From a virus: 64,000 nt of DNA. The stretch is taken from positions 1 to 64,000 of IMG/VR virus record IMGVR_UViG_3300042008_000003; one strand, 5' to 3'. Below are positions 1,911-27,698 of the stretch, in pieces (position 1 is the first letter of the stretch; every line of letters begins with the position of its first letter). Position numbers and translations under genes: made by a program. Under the pieces are notes generated by a model. That model was given only the letters and a program-made list of their open reading frames with translations, had not been told where the DNA came from and did no database searches.

Positions 1911-3083
1911 CTAGGGCATTTTGAAATTATATAATTTATCCAACACCCGTTTATCTAGTACGTCTTTAAACTCATCTGCCATCTGCCTAGCATGATTTTC
2001 TTTAAAGGTTTTGTAGAAACTACTTGCTTCTTCAGGAGTAGGAAATCCAGTTTGAGTCTTTACCCCGCCAGCAGTAGTATTCGCAAAGTATTGTCTGCCA
2101 CTCTTTGTTACTCCTGAAGGTAATTCCCTATCCCCTTGTACTGGCAATGTAGCATAGAAAGAGTTAATACACACAGGGACGAAACAACATGTCTCAGGGC
2201 CATATATTTTATTACCATCTACCAATATATCTTTTTCTAAGTGCCAACCTTTTAGTTTAAACGTTGCTTCCCACCAACTAGCAAAGTTTTGAAACTCTAA
2301 CCAATCATCACAAACTCTTACTCCTCTAGCACCATACTGATTGTAGGACTTTCTACTAGTGTTGTAACACCTAGACAACATACCATCCCATACTCGGTAA
2401 CAATCTGTCGTGACTCTATCGACAATACCAAGGATAGGGTAGTTAACAAAATTACCAACTCCATACTTCCTATACTCTAATCTTTCTTGTAAGTACTTCT
2501 CACCTGTAACTTTCTTCTCTAGCTCCCTCAAAGCCCTGTTCTCAGCTAGCATCATGTTACGTTTATTTGTTTGTGCCTTATAATATTCAGCAGATGTTGG
2601 ATACCAATGTAACTCATCTGTATACCCCTCACCTTTATAAGACAACCAACCTAGAACACATTCCACTGTTGTCCAACCATTACGAAGTCTTAGCTTTGTT
2701 GTCTTTTTATCCGCACTACAGAGGTTAGTAAAGTCCTCTAAAGGAATACTCTTACCCATGTACTCAACGAATTTCACTTCCTTAGGAACTGGTTCAGGTT
2801 TTACTTTCTTTGCTTTCCAATATTGATTGGCAGCAGAAGTATTTAATTTATCACCAAACTGTGCCACCAGATAAGCTCCCTCTGGATTGGGTATAAATGC
2901 AATTGCAACCAGTCTATGGACCTTACATAAGGAACTCTTACCATAGTCAGAAATTAAATTAGTGCACCAAAATCCACCGTTGATGGTTTGAGGCATTACA
3001 CGTCCTGTCTGCTTCTCTTTTACAATTCCTGTGTTTGACACCATATAACTTGTATAACCCTCTACTTCTTTCCACTCTTCCAT
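1911..3083 (-). CDS. homing endonuclease (NUMOD4/HNH-like N-terminus plus second HNH-related domain)
   Basis: EEWKEVEGY..Y.VSN.G.V, VHRLVA.AFIPNP; C-terminal W.EFQNF..W..LEKDIL..GNK.YGPETC.FVP. Confidence 0.8.
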   Translation of the reverse strand: MEEWKEVEGYTSYMVSNTGIVKEKQTGRVMPQTINGGFWCTNLISDYGKSSLCKVHRLVAIAFIPNPEGAYLVAQFGDKLNTSAANQYWKAKKVKPEPVPKEVKFVEYMGKSIPLEDFTNLCSADKKTTKLRLRNGWTTVECVLGWLSYKGEGYTDELHWYPTSAEYYKAQTNKRNMMLAENRALRELEKKVTGEKYLQERLEYRKYGVGNFVNYPILGIVDRVTTDCYRVWDGMLSRCYNTSRKSYNQYGARGVRVCDDWLEFQNFASWWEATFKLKGWHLEKDILVDGNKIYGPETCCFVPVCINSFYATLPVQGDRELPSGVTKSGRQYFANTTAGGVKTQTGFPTPEEASSFYKTFKENHARQMADEFKDVLDKRVLDKLYNFKMP

Positions 3084-5684: not shown

Positions 5685-6026
5685 TCACTCTTCATCCTCC
5701 AACCTAAGTTCAATTAGTTTATCAGTGTCTTGCGTTGCCTTACAAGCACACCTGGGGCGAAAACGACTAAGAATGTAACGATCAATCTCTGTTGTAAATA
5801 CAGATTTGAGAAAAACACCATCGTATACATGACCTTGAATTTTAGCTACATCTTTAAAATCTTTAATTACTATAAACCTAATCTTATTACCGAAAGATTC
5901 AATAGTCAAATCCTTTTGTTTAAGTTTTACATTTCCCCCGTCATCATATTTTGACATAAGATTAAACAAATCAACCGCATAACTTTTTGCAGTTTCACGG
6001 TTATCAAAGAAATAAGCAATATTCAT
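5685..6026 (-). CDS. mini terminase-ATPase-like fragment lacking catalytic motifs
   Basis: hand alignment to this window's TerL: KDL.I...G..I.F-x7-D-x4-QG..Y..V....FT.E...Y...R.R; GAGGAG RBS. Confidence 0.6.
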   Translation of the reverse strand: MNIAYFFDNRETAKSYAVDLFNLMSKYDDGGNVKLKQKDLTIESFGNKIRFIVIKDFKDVAKIQGHVYDGVFLKSVFTTEIDRYILSRFRPRCACKATQDTDKLIELRLEDEE

Positions 6027-6036
6027 TTTTCACTCC

Positions 6037-6315
6037 TCAACAATAAGCTGAACACTTCCTACATGGACAACTCAGCCCCATAGGCTTCATACGATCTTCT
6101 ACAGGGATGCTATCCCACAGGCACTTGGTATCCCCAATCTGCCCACTGCGAAACTTACTAACATCTCCGTGTGTGAAAGGATAGTATGGCATCTTCTCAT
6201 CATTCTCTACAGTCTTATACCGTGCAATACTCTCTTCCATTTCTTTGCGAAGTTGTTTAAGCTCATCTTCTACGTTCTGCATACGCTCTTCTAGTGTGAT
6301 ATTCACCATTTCCAC
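6037..6315 (-). CDS. coiled-coil protein with C-terminal CPCxxC motif
   Basis: translation. Confidence 0.65.
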   Translation of the reverse strand: MEMVNITLEERMQNVEDELKQLRKEMEESIARYKTVENDEKMPYYPFTHGDVSKFRSGQIGDTKCLWDSIPVEDRMKPMGLSCPCRKCSAYC

Positions 6316-6511: not shown

Positions 6512-6712
6512 CTATTTAAATTTCTTCCCACGATTATAGCTAGCCTTCTTCCACTTGTACAGCAATCTTTCCTCTTCTTTCTGATAATCATCAGCATATT
6601 TTAAATATTGACTTGCTAGAAGTGGTGTATCTGGATGATCTGGGTTAAGAGAAGCTGCTAGCTTTCTGTAGTAGGCTGGAACACTTGGTTGTTTTAGGTC
6701 TCTTTTAGCCAT
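6512..6712 (-). CDS. hypothetical protein
   Basis: ORF in operon. Confidence 0.6.
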   Translation of the reverse strand: MAKRDLKQPSVPAYYRKLAASLNPDHPDTPLLASQYLKYADDYQKEEERLLYKWKKASYNRGKKFK

Positions 6713-6911
6713 TTAACTCAATAACCATTTCAAGCATAATCAAAGCTAACTCTTTATTCTTATGCTGGCTGCGTTCATTCATACTGACAACACCTAATCG
6801 TGTAGGCTTATGCATGATCAACACTCCTGAACTTGTAAGGCCTACGTGTTGACCACCTTTAGATTTAATATCTGGGTAGGTTGACACCTCAATATCTTCT
6901 GGTTTAATCAT
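6705..6911 (-). CDS. stand-alone class I release factor GGQ (peptidyl-tRNA hydrolase) domain
   Basis: DIEV.T....KGGQHV...SSGV.I.H.PT.L.V....ERSQHKNK..A...L, matching RF domain 3. Confidence 0.85.
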   Translation of the reverse strand: MIKPEDIEVSTYPDIKSKGGQHVGLTSSGVLIMHKPTRLGVVSMNERSQHKNKELALIMLEMVIELNG

Positions 6912-10222: not shown

Positions 10223-10352
10223 TCCAGATCCTCCTCAATAATCTCTGGAAAATTATAACCCTCATAAATATATAGGTCACAAGACCAATTCATACTGGAC
10301 CATCGACATAAAGCCATAAAACCTCCTAATTAATTTATAAATATATAATAAC

Positions 10353-10388
10353 AAAAAGAGCAGCTAACCCGCAAGGACTAGCTGCTCT
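10353..10388 (-). terminator. rho-independent terminator
   Basis: AGAGCAGCTA/TAGCTGCTCT 10-bp stem with A-tract on the left. Confidence 0.7.
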
Positions 10389-11352: not shown

Positions 11353-11760
11353 TTAAATTTTGATTACTTCAACACCTTGACTTTTGAGGTATGCTAAACC
11401 CTCAACTGTCCTATATTCGTTACGATACCACACTCTTTTAATCTTTGCAGCTACTATCTTCAAACTACAATTCAAACAAGGGCTATGACTTACGAACATC
11501 TCAGCACCTTCTGATGTTTCAGTGCTTAGGTACAACTTCTCTAATGCAGCAGCTTCAGCGTGTCTTACAGTAGGCAATGTTTGCCCATATTCATCCTCAC
11601 AAATCTCTGTTTCCCACTTAGGTGGTTGACCATTTGTCCCAAGGCTTATGCAAGAATCATTTTTATAAATCATTGCACCAACCTTTAGCCTCTGTGCTTC
11701 TGAAGTTTCTCCAAACCTGCAAGTCATATCCATTAAAGCTAATGCGTATTTTTCTTTCAT
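11353..11760 (-). CDS. dCMP deaminase
   Basis: RLKVGA, HAE and PCxxC zinc-deaminase motifs. Confidence 0.92.
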   Translation of the reverse strand: MKEKYALALMDMTCRFGETSEAQRLKVGAMIYKNDSCISLGTNGQPPKWETEICEDEYGQTLPTVRHAEAAALEKLYLSTETSEGAEMFVSHSPCLNCSLKIVAAKIKRVWYRNEYRTVEGLAYLKSQGVEVIKI

Positions 11761-12068
11761 TGTGTCTTCTTCAATTGGCTTGCAAAACCCTTTCTACTAT
11801 TAGAACCGTAGGCGCTATATCCACCATCTTCACGACTAGATTTAGTCTTGATGGTCTTCGATGTCTTCACTGTATAAAAGTTTTCCCCGTATCGCTCATT
11901 ACAAGCTCGTTGAGCCTCTGATCGATCTGATGTGTGGAAATAAACATAATTTTGCATACTGTCCATGCAGAAGTATGTGGCAGGCTCAATGAATGAGTAA
12001 TCAGTGTATGTGATGTAATCTACAACCGTGATTTTAACTTCCTTAACCTTCTTTTCACTCATTGCCAA
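11757..12068 (-). CDS. hypothetical protein
   Basis: ORF with RBS. Confidence 0.65.
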   Translation of the reverse strand: MAMSEKKVKEVKITVVDYITYTDYSFIEPATYFCMDSMQNYVYFHTSDRSEAQRACNERYGENFYTVKTSKTIKTKSSREDGGYSAYGSNSRKGFASQLKKTQ

Positions 12069-12258
12069 TCTCCCTGAGCGTATTCTAGGTCAACCTCCAT
12101 ATTCCAGAAAGGGTCTACATCAAAGTTGTGCTCATGTATACACAAAAAATCCTCGTAGTCATCGCCAAGCTCATAAAGCAAGTCATTCAAATTCATTCTA
12201 TTCTCCTTTGTGTTAATCTGTCGCTATTGTAAGCCGACAGATTGGGGTCAGTCAATAA

Positions 12259-13029
12259 CTATTTTACAATTACTTCGCCACGGTATGGTTTGACAGGTTT
12301 TGGTTTAGATAGCTTCTTCTCTTTAGCCTCCCGTGCAGCAAGGGCTTTCTTAACACCAGCCTCTACAGCTTTCTCAATGATTTCTTCTAGGCTGAACTCT
12401 GGGGAATCTTCATCTTCTAGAGCCAGACTCTGATTGCGAGGACAGCTTTCGTCTCCACAATTACACGGCTGTGAGTTCCGATATTCATAAAAACCTTCCA
12501 TACGGCGTTCCAGCTCTTTTGCACCGAACCAGAACTCTTTACCATCATTACATAAAAGGATTTCATCGTCATTTAACAGACCCTTATATGTTGAGGTGAT
12601 TTCCTCCTCAAGCTGTTTAATACCAAACTCAGTCTGGGATTTCACATCAGGATTCTTACCGATAGACCCCCAAAAGGCACAATGCGCCATAAACTGGATA
12701 TGGTCAGCCCAATCATGCTGTTTACACGCCAAAAATACCCCTGTTGCAGCGCTCATGCAGTCATATTCAATAAATCCAACTACGTTAGCTTGAGATTCTT
12801 GAATTGCATTAATGATCATTCGTTCAGATGATACTGCACCACCTCTACTATTGATACGAATAATCACCTCGTCCTGTGGGCCACTGGTGCGAAGAGTGTT
12901 GCATAGGCTTACGTAATTTTCAGGTTCTGTAATAGGACCAGTAAGGTAGTAAGTATGTTGCTGTCCACGTACTTCTGTTGTAAAGACGTTCTGTGGTGGG
13001 AACATCGGAATAAAACTTTCTTCGCTCAT
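12259..13029 (-). CDS. ClpP-like ATP-dependent protease proteolytic subunit
   Basis: IRINSRGG, CMSAAT (catalytic Ser), FMAH; typical neighbour of phoH. Confidence 0.8.
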   Translation of the reverse strand: MSEESFIPMFPPQNVFTTEVRGQQHTYYLTGPITEPENYVSLCNTLRTSGPQDEVIIRINSRGGAVSSERMIINAIQESQANVVGFIEYDCMSAATGVFLACKQHDWADHIQFMAHCAFWGSIGKNPDVKSQTEFGIKQLEEEITSTYKGLLNDDEILLCNDGKEFWFGAKELERRMEGFYEYRNSQPCNCGDESCPRNQSLALEDEDSPEFSLEEIIEKAVEAGVKKALAAREAKEKKLSKPKPVKPYRGEVIVK

Positions 13030-13796
13030 AGGATAGTCTCCGGGACAGTATAGTTAATAAATGCTTGGTATGCACGTTCGTCTAACACATCTTTATACTT
13101 TTCAGCCCTTTCCTTTACAAGACATTCCTTGAACTCTTTATATACAGCAAATGCCTCAGTTGCACACTTATAGCGGCCTAAGTTTTTGTTTTTACCATTA
13201 ATTGCACAAGAAACAATATACTTCTGCGCACTGGTTTGGAAAGAAATACCCGCTGGTGTGCCTTTACCCGGCTTCACTTGTGTAACAATAATAGAATTTA
13301 GTTCTGGGGGCACAAATACGCACGTTTCAGGACCATAAACTTTATTACCTTGCACCAACACGTCCTTATCAAGTACATGTCCCATATTGTGTCCCGGTTG
13401 CCACTGGCACCATTCAGCAAACTCCTGAAAATTATGCCATTGTTCGTCTACTGAACATCCAACATAGGTTGGGAAACGTTGATGATATCCTTCATAATAG
13501 CTTCTTGTTAACATACTGGACCAATGAACATACTCGGGCGTTGTATCTATACCCTCCTTTGCTTTATATGGCCCAACCCCAAAGAATCCAATCCCTCTTA
13601 CTTGTGGATGAAAAGGATTTTTCACCCTACCAGTTAAAAGCTCTTGTGTAGCTGTAATTTTTTCATGGCCAGCGTAATCAATAAACTTTACTGTAATTTT
13701 ATTACATGCTTCATATTTTATGACTTCTACAGTACAACCTTGTCTTGTAGGGAACTTATCCCCAGCTTTAATTTTAGTTGAAAATACACCACCCAC
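13026..13796 (-). CDS. HNH-related homing endonuclease
   Basis: WSSMLTR, W.NFQ.FA.W, LDKD.L..GNK.YGPETC.FVP, C-terminal AP2-like NLGRY. Confidence 0.8.
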   Translation of the reverse strand: MGGVFSTKIKAGDKFPTRQGCTVEVIKYEACNKITVKFIDYAGHEKITATQELLTGRVKNPFHPQVRGIGFFGVGPYKAKEGIDTTPEYVHWSSMLTRSYYEGYHQRFPTYVGCSVDEQWHNFQEFAEWCQWQPGHNMGHVLDKDVLVQGNKVYGPETCVFVPPELNSIIVTQVKPGKGTPAGISFQTSAQKYIVSCAINGKNKNLGRYKCATEAFAVYKEFKECLVKERAEKYKDVLDERAYQAFINYTVPETIL

Positions 13797-14596
13797 TAAA
13801 CTTCTCCTTTTTCTTCTTTACGATATGCAATGATCCAGTCTTTGCACTGTTTGCTACGAACAATGTCATTGATATTATCAAAATCTACAAAACCAACATC
13901 AAGATGTGGATGTTTTTGAACCATATCTGTTAAATGACGCAGCCCACTGTTCTGATTTAACTCACTCTGTCCAACATCACCGGCAAGAATAAGCTTACAG
14001 TTCTTGCCTTGTCGGGTTACAAGCTTTTTAGCTTCATCCCGAGAAACGTCTTCTGCCTCGTCCACGATAAACCAGCAATTTTCTGCACTGAAGCCTTTAA
14101 TAGTTTCAAGAGGAAGAAAAATAATCTGTCCATGCTTCAAAGCAATTTCAAGTGCAGCTACTCCAATACGCTCATTTAAGATTGAAATTACTGGAGCAAG
14201 CCATTGAGTCATCTTTTCTTCAGCTGACCCTTTGAACATACCCAACGATTTACTATTGGAAATATTAGGACGACTAAAAATAATACGATCAATCTTGCCC
14301 AAGCGGAACAAATCACAAGCCATCATTGTAGGAATAAAGGTCTTCGATGTTCCCGGAAGGCCAGTCGCTATAACCATATCCTTTTCATTAAGTAGTCGAA
14401 TGTATTCAGCTTGCTTTTCATTCATAGGTTTGAGTGGTGCAAGCTTTTGTACGTGTTCGCGCTCCTCTTTAAACTTTGTAGCACTAATTGTTGCTTCTGG
14501 TTTCCCACCCTGCCTTGTGCGACGAGTCTTTTTACGGGGCTGAATCACTTCAACACCGTCCACTACTTCGATGAAACCGCGAGCATGACCACCCAT
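13796..14596 (-). CDS. phoH: PhoH-like ATPase
   Basis: N.KQ..Y, GLPGTSKT Walker A, IVDEAE, TRQG.N.K.IL.GD..QS.L. Confidence 0.93.
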   Translation of the reverse strand: MGGHARGFIEVVDGVEVIQPRKKTRRTRQGGKPEATISATKFKEEREHVQKLAPLKPMNEKQAEYIRLLNEKDMVIATGLPGTSKTFIPTMMACDLFRLGKIDRIIFSRPNISNSKSLGMFKGSAEEKMTQWLAPVISILNERIGVAALEIALKHGQIIFLPLETIKGFSAENCWFIVDEAEDVSRDEAKKLVTRQGKNCKLILAGDVGQSELNQNSGLRHLTDMVQKHPHLDVGFVDFDNINDIVRSKQCKDWIIAYRKEEKGEV

Positions 14597-25224: not shown

Positions 25225-26190
25225 TTGAACTACACTAAAATTTACAATGCTTTGGTGGAAAAAGTTAAGATTCGTGGTCTCGATAAGAGTCAACATGAAG
25301 GTTATTATGAAATTCATCATATTCTTCCTAAATGTTTAGGTGGTAGTGATGATAAGAGTAATTTGGTAATGTTTACCGCTAGGGAGCATTATATTGCTCA
25401 CATCCTATTGTGGAAAATGAACCCCGGACATGTGGGTTTGTTCACTGCTGCTTTCTTTATGAGTAAAAAGAGACTGTTTAAGTTCAGCTCGAAAATTTAC
25501 GAAGTTTTAAAAATAGAGCAAGCCAAACAACTAGCTGAATTTAATTCTAAGAATTCTGGATTCAATAGTCCTGTATTTAAAGATTTAACCGGGGAGGTTC
25601 GTGGGAGACTCACCGTAGTTTCTTTTGATGATTGGGTAATTCAATCTAACGGCCAAAGAACTTCAACTTGGACATGTCTTTGTACTTGTGGTAATTATTC
25701 AACGGTACGTGCTGGAAATCTGACCAAGAATAGTGGTACAAGATCTTGTGGATGTGATCGTATTGAAAAGACTAAAGCCAATACTGGAGAAAATAATAAA
25801 TTCTTCGGTAGAGTGCACTCAGATCAAGCAAAAGCGATAATGAGAGAGAAGAAACTAGGTCGTGCTGAATGGAACAAAGGCTTAGTACGATCAGATGAAA
25901 ATAAGATTAAAATTTCCGAGGGATTGAAAGCCAGAAATCGACCTGCATGGGAAGCTGGTACAGTCCTTACAAAAGATGAACAGTTAACTAAGTGGTTGAT
26001 GGCTGACTATTACTACGAATTATATCTTACTAATACCACACTAACTTCTGCAAAGTTCACCACTCTGTATAATCGGCTACATAACGATAATTTGCCAGCA
26101 AGAGCTTTTACTGCAATGCACAGAGAATTTGTTAAAGGTTGGATTCCTTTAGAAGATGAAAGGTGGATTAAGTTTTCTAAGGAATATTAA
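25225..26190 (+). CDS. HNH homing endonuclease with Cys-rich and NUMOD3-like domains
   Basis: E.HHILP.C.GG.D..SNLV..TAREH..AH; W.C.C.CG; SCGC; HS...K..M. Confidence 0.9.
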   Translation: MNYTKIYNALVEKVKIRGLDKSQHEGYYEIHHILPKCLGGSDDKSNLVMFTAREHYIAHILLWKMNPGHVGLFTAAFFMSKKRLFKFSSKIYEVLKIEQAKQLAEFNSKNSGFNSPVFKDLTGEVRGRLTVVSFDDWVIQSNGQRTSTWTCLCTCGNYSTVRAGNLTKNSGTRSCGCDRIEKTKANTGENNKFFGRVHSDQAKAIMREKKLGRAEWNKGLVRSDENKIKISEGLKARNRPAWEAGTVLTKDEQLTKWLMADYYYELYLTNTTLTSAKFTTLYNRLHNDNLPARAFTAMHREFVKGWIPLEDERWIKFSKEY

Positions 26191-27698
26191 TGTCAGAAGA
26201 ACAGGAAATTATTGGGCCTAGTAGTGCTAAACAATCCCTAATGTTGAATCAGCAAGCTGATACGGCTATTCTAGGGGGGGCTATGGGCTCAGGAAAATCA
26301 TTCATTTCATTGCTTTATCCTTTGAAATTTGCTGACGATCCTCACCTTCGCGGTATTATCTTCCGTAAGACCACTGGTGAAATCACCGCTCAAGGTGGTC
26401 TTTGGGAGAATGCTTGTGAAATCTATTCTAAAGTCTATGGTAATGCTGAAGAACTAAGGAAACAAGGCAAGAAAGGTGGTATCAAGATTCATATCAAAGA
26501 TCTTAAAATTACCTTTCCTTCTGGCGGTTCAATTAAGTTCTCTTACCTAGAAAATTCCCGTGATTTGCTCCGACACCAAGGGGCAGCTTACACTTTTGTG
26601 CTATTTGACGAAGCCACACACTTTACTCAAGAAATGATTGAGTACCTTATTAAGCGTATGCGTTCGGCCCGCGCAAAACACAAGAAGCAAATGGTTCTCA
26701 CTTGTAACCCAGATCCAGACTGGTTTGGTCTTGAGTGGATTAAACCTTATCTCACAGAAGATGGTACACCTAATACTGATAATGACGGAAAGATGCGTTA
26801 TTATGCAGTAGATAACGGTGACTACGTTTGGTCAGATAGTCGTGAAGAATTAGAAGCCATTTATGGTGAAGGAACAGATTCTGGTATTCGCAGTTTCACC
26901 TTTGTGAGCGCGAATTGCATGGACAATATTCCACTTATGACTGCCGACCCAACATATCTATCTAATTTGAAAGCTCAGAGTACCGTAGATGTCCAACGCT
27001 ACCTCTATGGTAACTGGTTTGTAAGGCCAACTAACTCAACCATGATACGTCGTGAGTGGTTTGTCGAAAAAGATCAAGAACCTGCATGGACAGAGATAGT
27101 TAAAACAGTTAGGGCATATGACTTTGCTTTCGTTTTACGTTCAGATAAGAATAGTTCTCCTGATTATACTGTATCGGTTAAGATGAGTAAGTTGAAAGAT
27201 GGTAATTACTTTATTCATGACATCCGAAGAACTCGTATTCTACCCGGAGATTGGATGAAGTTTATTTTAGACGCAGCTCTAGCTGACGGACCTAAAGTAG
27301 AAATTGTATTGCCTCTTGACCCTCAAACTCGTTATAGCAACACATTCATATCTAAAGACCTGTCATCTAAAGGTTTTCATGTACGTCAGTTCAAAACTAC
27401 AGGACACAAAGAAGATCGCTTCAAACCGTTTACATCTATTGTTATGAATGGTGGAATGCAGATTCTAAAGGATTGTGGTGCTGACTATGAAAATGGAGTT
27501 TATGACGATCTTAACTTTTTCTATAAAGAGTTAGAGTCTTATGAGGGTGGTAAAAGATCCTCTGGTACTCGCCACGACGATCTTTGTGATGCTTGTAGCG
27601 ATTCATTTGCTGCGGTAGCCTCTAGTAAGACTATACCAAACTTCCTTGCTGGTTTAAAAGGCGCAAACCTTTCATATAATAATCCCTTCAATCAATAG
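26190..27698 (+). CDS. terL: terminase large subunit
   Basis: GGAMGSGKS Walker A, VLFDEA Walker B, TCNP coupling motif, RAYD and HDD.CD nuclease motifs. Confidence 0.96.
   Translation: MSEEQEIIGPSSAKQSLMLNQQADTAILGGAMGSGKSFISLLYPLKFADDPHLRGIIFRKTTGEITAQGGLWENACEIYSKVYGNAEELRKQGKKGGIKIHIKDLKITFPSGGSIKFSYLENSRDLLRHQGAAYTFVLFDEATHFTQEMIEYLIKRMRSARAKHKKQMVLTCNPDPDWFGLEWIKPYLTEDGTPNTDNDGKMRYYAVDNGDYVWSDSREELEAIYGEGTDSGIRSFTFVSANCMDNIPLMTADPTYLSNLKAQSTVDVQRYLYGNWFVRPTNSTMIRREWFVEKDQEPAWTEIVKTVRAYDFAFVLRSDKNSSPDYTVSVKMSKLKDGNYFIHDIRRTRILPGDWMKFILDAALADGPKVEIVLPLDPQTRYSNTFISKDLSSKGFHVRQFKTTGHKEDRFKPFTSIVMNGGMQILKDCGADYENGVYDDLNFFYKELESYEGGKRSSGTRHDDLCDACSDSFAAVASSKTIPNFLAGLKGANLSYNNPFNQ

What the first reader, a model, noticed from the sequence alone, without database searches (positions are those of the whole stretch)
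5685..6026. Early mini-protein resembling the phage's own terminase ATPase subdomain (candidate immune decoy)
Seen: KDLTIESFGNKIRFIVIKDFKDVAKIQGHVYDGVFLKSVFTTEIDRYILSRFR aligns by hand to TerL KDLKITFPSGGSIKFSYLENSRDLLRHQGAAYTFVLFDEATHFTQEMIEYLIKRMR (about 26490-26663). Spacing of F-x7-D-x4-QG-x2-Y-x2-V is identical, with roughly 18 identities in ~55 positions. Walker A is absent and the Walker B acidic pair DE is replaced by KS. The gene sits among small host-interaction genes 20 kb from terL. Known: Avs (STAND) anti-phage receptors sense large terminases. Inference: a catalytically dead decoy that titrates terminase-sensing immunity, or a dominant-negative inhibitor of packaging.
Basis: partly seen in the sequence, partly recalled or inferred. 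Interest (0 to 1): 0.72.

Follow-up and report, generated by a model that had tools for sequence, protein, structure and literature searches.

The report
Dead mini-copy of terminase ATPase core
A small phage gene encodes a stripped-down, catalytically dead relative of the phage's own DNA-packaging motor protein; it keeps the motor's "arginine finger" region, so it probably acts by binding rather than by burning ATP.

Summary
The 113-aa ORF at 5685-6026 (minus strand) matches the phage's TerL (26190-27698) at residues 96-158. BLASTP gives 20/63 identities, E 1e-6 pairwise and 7e-5 against all 360 window ORFs.

Profile-profile comparison gives 91.5% probability, E 8.7e-7. A reversed control and 60 shuffled controls reach at most score 22, against 48 for the real pair. 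An AlphaFold model (pLDDT 82) finds terminase ATPases first in PDB, BFVD and the ESM Atlas.

The gene is real. It has a GAGGAG ribosome-binding site and dN/dS about 0.11. It belongs to a rare family of about 13 sequences.

It has no P-loop, and the Walker B Asp-Glu is Lys-Ser. Its invariant Arg88/Arg90 align with TerL's invariant Arg156/Arg158. Arg156 aligns with the proven trans-arginine finger of D6E TerL (PMC5727402).

Function is untested. My best guess is a non-catalytic TerL pseudo-subunit or surface mimic. The decoy idea is possible, but the published TerL-like small proteins (Ksap1, Ksap2, T4 vs.8) activate Avs2 rather than block it (PMC13601566). This family shows no sequence relation to those.

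The parts
5685..6026 (-). Gene for the 113-aa mini-protein, a P-loop-less and Walker-B-less relative of the TerL ATPase core. Predicted elements are strand 2-7, helix 10-27, strands 33-36, 41-44 and 47-53, helix 57-63, strand 70-73 and helix 79-87. The tail from about residue 95 is disordered.
   Evidence: ORF. Family alignments. AF2 model with pLDDT 82.4 and pTM 0.71. dN/dS 0.11 against the copy in L002.
6033..6038 (-). GAGGAG Shine-Dalgarno sequence, 6 nt before the ATG. It overlaps the TGA stop of the upstream gene.
   Evidence: Upstream 40 nt printed. A GGGAGG sits at the same place in the relative L002.
6037..6315 (-). Upstream 92-aa gene of unknown function. It lies directly next to the mini-gene in both phages for which flanking DNA was available.
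   Evidence: Homologue at L002:9810-10004 directly before the mini homologue (41% identity, E 2.5e-8; ORFs). No Pfam or PHROG hit. The upstream gene in phiPto-bp6g is not detectably similar.
26190..27698 (+). terL, the large terminase (502 aa): N-terminal ATPase plus C-terminal RNaseH-like nuclease.
   Evidence: The best named relative is Pseudomonas phage phiPMW TerL at 42% identity.
26475..26663 (+). TerL residues 96-158, the segment matched by the mini-protein. It holds a beta-hairpin, the D125..Q130-G131 loop, the Walker B strand (D140, E141), the following helix and the invariant R156/R158.
   Evidence: TerL invariants. R156 aligns with D6E R158.

Best explanation
SHOWN: the gene encodes a conserved small protein that descends from, or shares ancestry with, the ATPase core of large terminases of this phage's TerL clade. 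It covers roughly the part between the P-loop helix and the C-motif strand.

It has lost everything needed for ATP binding and hydrolysis. It keeps the non-catalytic residues that are invariant in the TerL clade: I42/I107, F51/F117, D59/D125, G65/G131, R88/R156 and R90/R158. These include the position of the trans-acting arginine finger.

INFERRED: it works by binding, not by catalysis. The most likely mode is as a pseudo-subunit. It would present the finger face of a TerL protomer to the ATP face of a real TerL, while offering no ATP site of its own for the next protomer. That would cap, hold or shield TerL, whether the phage's own or that of a related competitor.

An analogous case, recalled and not checked here, is the clamp-loader delta-prime subunit. 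It does not bind ATP but donates an arginine finger.

The confidence of 0.4 is for the whole statement including the inferred pseudo-subunit mode. For the shown part alone (a catalytically dead TerL-ATPase-core homologue) I would give about 0.85-0.9.
For: Homology:
- BLASTP E 1e-6, and E 7e-5 against all window ORFs.
- Six-frame HMMER on the genome, E 3e-5.
- hhalign Prob 91.5%, E 8.7e-7, with reversed and shuffled controls at or below score 22 against 48.
- The family HMM hits 61 of 121 clade TerLs at E<1e-3, always near residues 97-162.
- In a second phage (G001) the mini against its own TerL matches in register, E 0.013.

Fold:
- Foldseek PDB ranks 1-7 are all D6E TerL chains (E 0.012-0.05, TMq 0.58-0.62).
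- VIA-align over 48,161 chains puts a herpesvirus terminase first (Z 8.7). Then come D6E TerL at Z 7.5 (rmsd 2.1 over 91 residues), P74-26 TerL at Z 6.9 and PhiV-1 TerL at Z 6.3. Nine of the top 27 rows are viral packaging ATPases.
- BFVD gives 7 hits at E<=0.001: 2 small proteins and 5 proteins of 439-848 aa, two of them named Terminase-like.
- In the ESM Atlas, the four representative structural neighbours shown are terminase-family clusters, TM 0.69-0.71.

Real gene: SD site and dN/dS 0.11, plus conserved length and invariants in 12 sequences.

Finger retention: R88 and R90 are invariant in the mini family and align with R156 and R158, which are invariant in 28 TerLs. R156 aligns with D6E R158. 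[quoted passage not shown]

Decay from a TerL ancestor: P0012 and the phiPto-bp6g protein still carry Glu at the position aligned with TerL E141.
Against: No binding evidence of any kind was obtained.

The retained residues could serve folding or another ligand.

The protein lacks the P-loop strand and the strands after the finger loop, so a native-like subunit interface may not form.

The gene lies 20 kb from the packaging module, in an arm that holds PhoH, a ClpP-like protein and a dCMP deaminase.

It is rare. Only 5 representatives were found among 1.84 billion proteins, against 227 or more TerL clusters. It is therefore an accessory gene, not a core packaging part.

Foldseek E-values against PDB are all above 0.001, and the Z scores lie in the range the tool calls middling.

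The hhalign match of TerL to D6E that carries the finger equivalence is itself weak (Prob 12.7%, E 0.0023), although it is in register at Walker A, QG, DE and CNP.
Confidence: 0.4

Rival explanations
1. Immune-sensor ligand. The mini-protein occupies the terminase-binding pocket of Avs-type or Upx-type sensors. It either blocks them without triggering oligomerisation, or it is an anti-defence protein that some sensors have learned to detect.
For: Ksap1, Ksap2 and T4 vs.8 are small non-terminase phage proteins with a TerL-ATPase-like fold. [quoted passage not shown]

The PhiV-1 TerL residues named as EcAvs2 contacts (Arg154, Trp179) and its Walker B Asp161 lie inside chain range 83-194. That is the range VIA aligned with the mini model.

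The gene sits in an accessory arm.
Against: Every tested TerL-like small protein activates Avs2 and none inhibits it (PMC13601566; PMC11564622).

EcAvs2 recognition uses the terminase-bound ATP and a bridging ATP, and SeAvs3 also binds the nuclease domain. The mini-protein has no P-loop and no nuclease domain.

The Upx models thread strands that include the P-loop strand, which is missing here.

There is no sequence relation to vs.8 (hhalign Prob 0.5%). There is none either to SECphi18 gp51, which I take to be Ksap1 from its length and position (Prob 0.2%).
Confidence: 0.2
2. Exapted scaffold. The protein comes from a TerL fragment but now does something unrelated to TerL or its sensors. It might bind a host protein or nucleic acid through the Arg/Lys-rich loops and the conserved C-terminal Cys-x-Cys.
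For: Neighbours are small orphan genes. The close family has an extra conserved R-P-R-C-x-C tail that is absent from TerL. BFVD lists many phage proteins of about 100 aa and unknown function with a similar small alpha/beta fold.
Against: It would be a coincidence that the retained residues are exactly the invariant non-catalytic positions of the TerL clade, the finger position included. The Cys pair is missing in the distant members P0011, P0012 and P0008, so it is not the core function.
Confidence: 0.3
3. No true homology. This would be a generic small Rossmann-like phage protein that resembles TerL by chance or convergence, or a decaying gene fragment.
For: Pfam finds nothing. The family profile finds no PDB terminase by sequence; its best hit is a methyltransferase at E 0.54. 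Foldseek PDB E-values are above 0.001. Helicase and Toprim domains score nearly as well in VIA.
Against: Four independent sequence tests with controls argue against it. So does the in-register match in a second phage. Terminases come first in three structure libraries.

It is not a decaying fragment. dN/dS is 0.11, an SD site is present, and 12 intact homologues span 29-98% identity.
Confidence: 0.07

Closest known systems
[quoted passage not shown] 2026, PMC13601566)
   Same: A phage protein encoded outside the packaging module. It shows sequence homology to the ATPase domain of the phage's own large terminase and has no known function.
   Different: [quoted passage not shown] The window protein is 113 aa and has neither. 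No sequence relation was detected between the two families (hhalign Prob 0.5%).
Ksap1 / Ksap2 (KpAvs2-stimulating proteins; Béchon et al. 2024, PMC11564622; Evans et al. 2026)
   Same: Small lineage-restricted phage proteins (Ksap1 is 74 aa) of unknown function. They have a central beta-sheet flanked by helices, described as terminase-ATPase-like.
   Different: Their likeness to TerL is structural only. SECphi18 gp51, taken here as Ksap1, shows no similarity to its own TerL or to this family. The window protein has significant sequence similarity to TerL and keeps the arginine-finger positions. Whether it touches Avs2 is unknown.
Large terminase ATPase domain (Pfam Terminase_6N; solved examples D6E, P74-26, Sf6, T4 gp17)
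   Same: The same core fold and the same non-catalytic conserved positions, including the trans-arginine-finger site.
   Different: It lacks the P-loop, the catalytic Asp-Glu, the C-motif strand, the lid subdomain and the nuclease domain. It scores below every Pfam terminase threshold.
PLE Gpi (satellite-encoded inhibitor that binds ICP1 TerL; Boyd and Seed 2024, bioRxiv 10.1101/2024.04.22.590561, abstract read)
   Same: This is the only described small protein that blocks packaging by binding TerL. That is the activity proposed here.
   Different: Gpi is encoded by a satellite, not by the phage, and its abstract does not describe it as TerL-like. Binding by the window protein has not been shown.

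Membership tests
Large terminase ATPase domain (Terminase_6N, ASCE P-loop) | Walker A P-loop (G-x4-G-K-S/T) | tested here: not met
   No such motif occurs in any of the 12 aligned family members. TerL has it at residues 29-37.
Large terminase ATPase domain (Terminase_6N, ASCE P-loop) | Walker B hydrophobic strand ending in Asp-Glu | tested here: not met
   The strand is present, but D140-E141 align with K74-S75. Only P0012 and P0008 keep a Glu at the second position.
Large terminase ATPase domain (Terminase_6N, ASCE P-loop) | Sequence match over the Pfam gathering score | tested here: not met
   None of the 8 members scanned hits any terminase family, even at E 10.
Large terminase ATPase domain (Terminase_6N, ASCE P-loop) | Significant sequence or profile similarity to bona fide TerLs | tested here: met
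Large terminase ATPase domain (Terminase_6N, ASCE P-loop) | ASCE/RecA-like alpha/beta core superposable on solved TerL ATPases | tested here: met
   D6E Z 7.5 with rmsd 2.1 over 91 residues; P74-26 Z 6.9 with rmsd 1.9 over 89 residues. Foldseek top 7 are D6E TerL chains. The Z values are middling by the tool's own note.
Large terminase ATPase domain (Terminase_6N, ASCE P-loop) | Trans-acting arginine in the loop after the helix that follows Walker B (the D6E R158 position) | tested here: met
   Invariant R88/R90 align with the invariant TerL R156/R158. R156 aligns with D6E R158 (a weak but in-register alignment). The position is met; the activity is untested.
Large terminase ATPase domain (Terminase_6N, ASCE P-loop) | C-terminal RNaseH-like nuclease domain | tested here: not met
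   The protein ends at 113 aa and residues 104-113 are disordered.
Non-terminase TerL-like Avs2 activators (Ksap1, Ksap2, vs.8) | Small phage protein outside the packaging module with a TerL-ATPase-like fold | tested here: met
Non-terminase TerL-like Avs2 activators (Ksap1, Ksap2, vs.8) | Sequence relation to Ksap1 or vs.8 | tested here: not met
   hhalign Prob 0.5% against vs.8 and 0.2% against SECphi18 gp51. Ksap2 was not fetched.
Non-terminase TerL-like Avs2 activators (Ksap1, Ksap2, vs.8) | Binds and activates Avs2 | not testable with these tools
   This needs a co-expression toxicity or pull-down assay.
TerL-binding packaging inhibitors (PLE Gpi type) | Direct binding to TerL with a block of packaging | not testable with these tools
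   This needs a two-hybrid or pull-down assay and a packaging assay.

The most novel reading that the evidence does not exclude
The protein is a finger-only pseudo-subunit of the packaging motor. It is a catalytically dead TerL paralogue that docks its retained arginine-finger face onto the ATP site of a TerL monomer.

Depending on the target, this would do one of two things. It could hide the very surface that Avs2/Avs3-type sensors read until TerL assembles on the portal. That would make it the 'third partner' that Béchon et al. suggested might prevent terminase recognition during infection. Or it could cap the TerL ring of a co-infecting relative or satellite.

Either way it would be the first phage-encoded TerL paralogue known to regulate or protect TerL.
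Probability: 0.2. Interest if true: 0.85.

Novelty: new variant of a known kind. Interest (0 to 1): 0.6.

Why it matters
Large terminase is the phage protein most widely sensed by bacterial immunity (Avs1-3, Upx). In 2024-2026 three lineage-restricted small proteins with a TerL-like fold were found to engage the same sensors, and their function is an explicit open question (PMC13601566, discussion).

This family adds a case in which descent from TerL is visible in the sequence. The pattern of loss and retention is also clean: the ATP-binding and catalytic residues are gone, while the inter-subunit arginine-finger positions are invariant. That pattern yields a concrete hypothesis that can be tested by mutagenesis, namely a pseudo-subunit, shield or decoy. 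It also suggests that partial duplication of TerL is a recurrent way for phages to make TerL-surface mimics.

Tried and rejected
1. Default BLASTP against all window ORFs did not report TerL. The cause was seeding, not score: with one-hit or short-word seeding the same 32.7-bit alignment appears.

2. The family profile against PDB sequences found no terminase. The best hit was a methyltransferase at E 0.54. The TerL clade profile itself finds no PDB terminase either, so this clade is simply far from the solved TerLs.

3. The profile search of 1.84 billion representatives gave only 5 hits. One of them, P0010, is a 917-aa tandem-repeat protein matched in 12 short stretches. I treat it as spurious and left it out of all alignments.

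4. Complex prediction of TerL 1-290 with mini 1-96 returned 'no answer', with run scores 0.00, 0.50 and 0.01 and no controls run. I count this neither for nor against binding.

The contigs of P0002, P0005 and the other hits could therefore not be inspected. Context comes from only one related phage (G001) and from phiPto-bp6g.

6. The phiPto-bp6g record (26.5 kb) has no Terminase_6N match. Its mini-protein could not be compared with its own TerL.

7. The promoter scan was at chance level, 57 found against 57.6 expected. I make no claim about timing.

8. I considered that the gene might be an exon or half of a split terL. Ten relatives' TerL hits are C-terminal-only ORFs. I rejected the idea because the mini-protein spans the region on both sides of Walker B, is 32% identical rather than identical, and the window's terL is intact.

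9. I considered a relic of a homing-endonuclease-driven duplication, since earlier notes describe such duplications in this genome. I rejected it because of purifying selection and conservation across phages.

10. Literature searches for a described terminase-like decoy or phage-encoded TerL inhibitor turned up only Ksap1/2, vs.8 and PLE Gpi. In one search the 'decoy' hits I inspected, in two of the listed papers, were about mass-spectrometry target-decoy methods.

Supplementary Figs 13-16 of PMC13601566, which show the structural likeness of Ksap1/2 and vs.8 to TerL, were not seen.

12. Not done: RNA evidence (look-up of sequencing runs, read laying), a fold of TerL itself, and the pdb_via second look.

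Full report
WHAT IS THERE

The window is the first 64 kb of an 87,840-bp virus record. The flagged ORF lies on the minus strand at 5685-6026 and encodes 113 aa. A GAGGAG Shine-Dalgarno sequence sits 6 nt before its ATG and overlaps the stop codon of the upstream gene.

The large terminase gene is at 26190-27698 on the plus strand and encodes 502 aa. It matches Terminase_6N (E 1.8e-17), Terminase_6C (E 4.7e-8) and phrog_979 (E 1.8e-146). The phage is distant from named phages: its TerL is at best 42% identical to that of Pseudomonas phage phiPMW, and megablast of the region finds nothing.

IS THE RESEMBLANCE REAL?

BLASTP aligns mini residues 31-90 with TerL residues 96-158: 20/63 identities, 32.7 bits, E 1e-6 for the pair.

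- With default seeding BLAST misses TerL.
- With sensitive seeding TerL is the only non-self hit below E 1 (E 7e-5), and the next best scores 19.6 bits.
- A six-frame HMMER search of the whole genome returns only the gene itself and terL (E 3e-5).

At profile level, 12 family members against 28 diverse TerLs give hhalign Prob 91.5%, E 8.7e-7 over 60 columns. In my own rerun the score was 48.3. The reversed query scored 14.1, and the best of 60 column-shuffled queries scored 22.0.

The family HMM hits 61 of 121 TerLs of this clade at E<1e-3, always near TerL residues 97-162. Several of them score above the window's own TerL. The misses include about ten C-terminal-only TerL ORFs, which cannot match. 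In a second phage (G001, 93 kb), its mini-protein matches its own TerL in the same register (E 0.013). The likeness is therefore to the TerL clade, not specifically to the phage's own TerL.

FOLD

AlphaFold2 with the 8-sequence alignment gives pLDDT 82.4 and pTM 0.71. The model is a five-stranded sheet with three helices over residues 1-90, followed by a disordered tail.
- Foldseek against PDB finds nothing at E<=0.001. Ranks 1-7 are nevertheless all chains of the D6E large terminase (E 0.012-0.05, TMq 0.58-0.62, rmsd 2.7-3.2 over 93-94 columns). Sf6 gp2 appears at TMq 0.63.
- VIA-align against 48,161 representative chains ranks a herpesvirus terminase first (Z 8.7).
- In the same search D6E TerL is second (Z 7.5, rmsd 2.1 over 91 residues), P74-26 TerL fourth (Z 6.9, rmsd 1.9 over 89) and PhiV-1 TerL from the Avs3 complex eighth (Z 6.3).
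- Sf6, phi29, HK97 and T4 gp17 follow at Z 5.4-6.0, so nine of the top 27 rows are viral packaging ATPases. The rest are Toprim and helicase RecA-like domains. The tool warns that Z 7-8 is middling, so on its own this shows a common alpha/beta arrangement that is closest to terminases.
- BFVD gives 7 hits at E<=0.001: a 95-aa protein (31% identical, E 2e-8), a 109-aa Pseudomonas phage phiPsa315 protein, and five proteins of 439-848 aa, two of them named 'Terminase-like family'.
- The ESM Atlas's own model of this protein has terminase-family clusters as its four representative structural neighbours shown (TM 0.69-0.71). The nearest named clusters by features are all terminase fragments, but only at 0.85, which is lead level.

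Sequence and structure agree. I put homology with the TerL ATPase core at about 0.85-0.9.

A REAL, RARE GENE FAMILY

Seven close homologues (63-98% identical) exist among 5.8 billion proteins. One more lies on an IMG/VR contig (68%). Three distant ones (P0009, P0011, P0012) come from the exhaustive profile search, which found only 5 hits in 1.84 billion representatives. One is annotated as hypothetical in Pseudomonas phage phiPto-bp6g.

All are 85-114 aa and none carries a name other than 'hypothetical protein'.

Against the G001 copy, dN/dS is about 0.11, with dS near saturation.

Invariant across the 12 sequences are M1, I42, D59, K62, I63, G65, R88 and R90. Nearly invariant are I3, F7, D8, F51, I54, D69, F72, S87 and F89. 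P0011 even carries a T-I-N-S-P-S-G-S-I-K-F stretch, close to the TerL hairpin motif.

WHAT WAS KEPT AND WHAT WAS LOST

The mini-protein corresponds to the TerL core after the P-loop helix and before the C-motif strand. No member has a Walker A motif. The Walker B D140-E141 of TerL aligns with K74-S75. Only the Pseudomonas-phage branch (P0012, P0008) keeps a Glu at the second position, which looks like stepwise decay from a TerL ancestor.

In contrast, the non-catalytic positions that are invariant or nearly so in 28 TerLs are also conserved in the mini family:
- I107 / I42
- F117 / F51
- D125 / D59
- G131 / G65
- R156 / R88
- R158 / R90

For D6E TerL, mutagenesis and mixing assays identified R158, 15 residues after the catalytic E143, as the trans-acting arginine finger. 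It lies in the loop between helix 3 and strand 4 (PMC5727402, abstract and passages read). I fetched D6E TerL. hhalign aligns it with the TerL profile in register at Walker A, QG, DE and CNP, and puts window R156 on D6E R158. The score is weak (Prob 12.7%, E 0.0023). The spacing E141 to R156 is also 15.

The two invariant arginines of the mini-protein therefore sit at the finger position. The invariant K62 sits in the loop where P74-26 has its finger R139 (same paper). The alignments show this. That these residues still act as a finger is inference.

CONTEXT

The minus-strand arm from 14.6 kb down to the mini-gene holds PhoH, a ClpP-like protein, a dCMP deaminase, DUF7390 and many small orphan genes. 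It is collinear with the related phage G001: 12 ORFs in the same order, with two others (the GGQ gene and a zinc-ribbon-like gene) displaced.

The 92-aa gene just upstream of the mini-gene is its neighbour in both phages (E 2.5e-8). The upstream gene in phiPto-bp6g shows no similarity.

Timing of expression is unknown, because the promoter scan was at chance level.

HOW IT MOST LIKELY WORKS

The protein cannot bind or hydrolyse ATP in the TerL manner, so it must act by binding. The selective retention of the inter-subunit finger positions argues that the kept function is the one these residues have in TerL, which is contact with the ATP face of a neighbouring TerL protomer.

I therefore favour a pseudo-subunit (confidence 0.4). 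It would dock on TerL and offer no ATP site for the next protomer. That would cap the ring, hold TerL monomeric, or cover the active-site surface.

The rivals are:
- A ligand or decoy for terminase sensors (0.2).
- An exapted scaffold with an unrelated partner (0.3).
- No true homology (0.07).

LITERATURE

Evans et al. 2026 (PMC13601566; sections 6, 8, 9 and 10 read) report the following:
- The ATPase domain alone activates EcAvs2 and Upx.
- EcAvs2 reads the terminase-bound ATP through a bridging ATP.
- Upx is modelled as binding unfolded core strands.
- Ksap1, Ksap2 and T4 vs.8 are non-terminase proteins with a TerL-ATPase-like structure that sit in the same pocket and activate Avs2.
- vs.8 has sequence homology to T4 TerL, including Walker A and B.
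- The authors call the function of these proteins an open question and suggest they may be anti-defence proteins.

Béchon et al. 2024 (PMC11564622, passages read) note that some factor may prevent terminase recognition during SECphi18 infection.

Boyd and Seed 2024 (abstract read) describe PLE Gpi, a satellite protein that binds ICP1 TerL and blocks packaging.

I fetched vs.8 and SECphi18 gp51. I take gp51 to be Ksap1 from its 74-aa length and its position between the methyltransferase and phosphatase genes. Neither is related in sequence to this family, and gp51 shows no similarity to its own TerL.

The window protein is thus a new, independently derived family of the 'TerL-like small protein' kind. 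It differs in being P-loop-less and Walker-B-less while retaining the finger. My searches found no description of such a protein.

VERDICT

The finding is a new variant of a recently recognised kind, and I score interest at 0.6.

Noticed in passing
window 6705-6911 (-): A 68-aa stand-alone GGQ release-factor domain (Pfam RF-1, E 1.6e-13, over the cutoff; phrog_35727, E 2.8e-16). A 70%-identical copy lies in the related phage at L002:11564-11782, where it sits downstream of the mini-gene instead of upstream.
   Followed up: partly
window 25225-26190 (+): A 321-aa ORF whose stop abuts the terL start. It carries an HNH-like motif (seen by eye) and a NUMOD3 motif (E 1.5e-7), so it is a homing-endonuclease-type gene directly before terL. 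The 390-aa ORF at 1911-3083 (-) has NUMOD4 and is paralogous to 13026-13796 (-), judged from shared hits in phiPto-bp6g.
   Followed up: partly
TerL relatives P0049, P0053, P0055, P0066, P0068, P0073, P0108, P0125, P0130, P0132: Ten TerL homologues are ORFs of 337-366 aa that cover only the C-terminal 62-72% of TerL; nine carry Terminase_6C alone, and P0073 has no Pfam domain on record. Others are 629-817 aa. This suggests that terL is split or interrupted, or fused to an extra N-terminal domain, in several relatives.
   Followed up: no
window 10357-10388 (-): A strong terminator-like hairpin (14 pairs, 7 of them GC, followed by a T-run) lies inside the leftward arm. Promoter-like sites follow at 10280 and 9803 (-). 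The mini-gene may therefore belong to a transcription unit that starts near 10.3 kb.
   Followed up: no
window 11353-14596 (-): The same arm encodes PhoH (E 1.5e-44), a ClpP-like protein (E 1.2e-5) and a dCMP/cytidine deaminase (E 5.1e-15). The arm is collinear with the related 93-kb phage G001 (L002).
   Followed up: partly
BFVD hits of the mini model: Many uncharacterised phage proteins of about 85-135 aa have a similar small alpha/beta fold at E 1e-3 to 3e-2. They come from Acinetobacter phages Acj9 and 133, Stenotrophomonas phage Salva, Pectobacterium phage Wc4 and others. TerL-core-like mini-proteins may be more widespread than this one family.
   Followed up: no
P0010: A 917-aa protein built of about 12 near-identical repeats of roughly 56 aa scored E 4.9e-16 against the mini-family profile by adding up weak repeat matches. 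It is probably a spurious hit to a repetitive metagenomic ORF.
   Followed up: no
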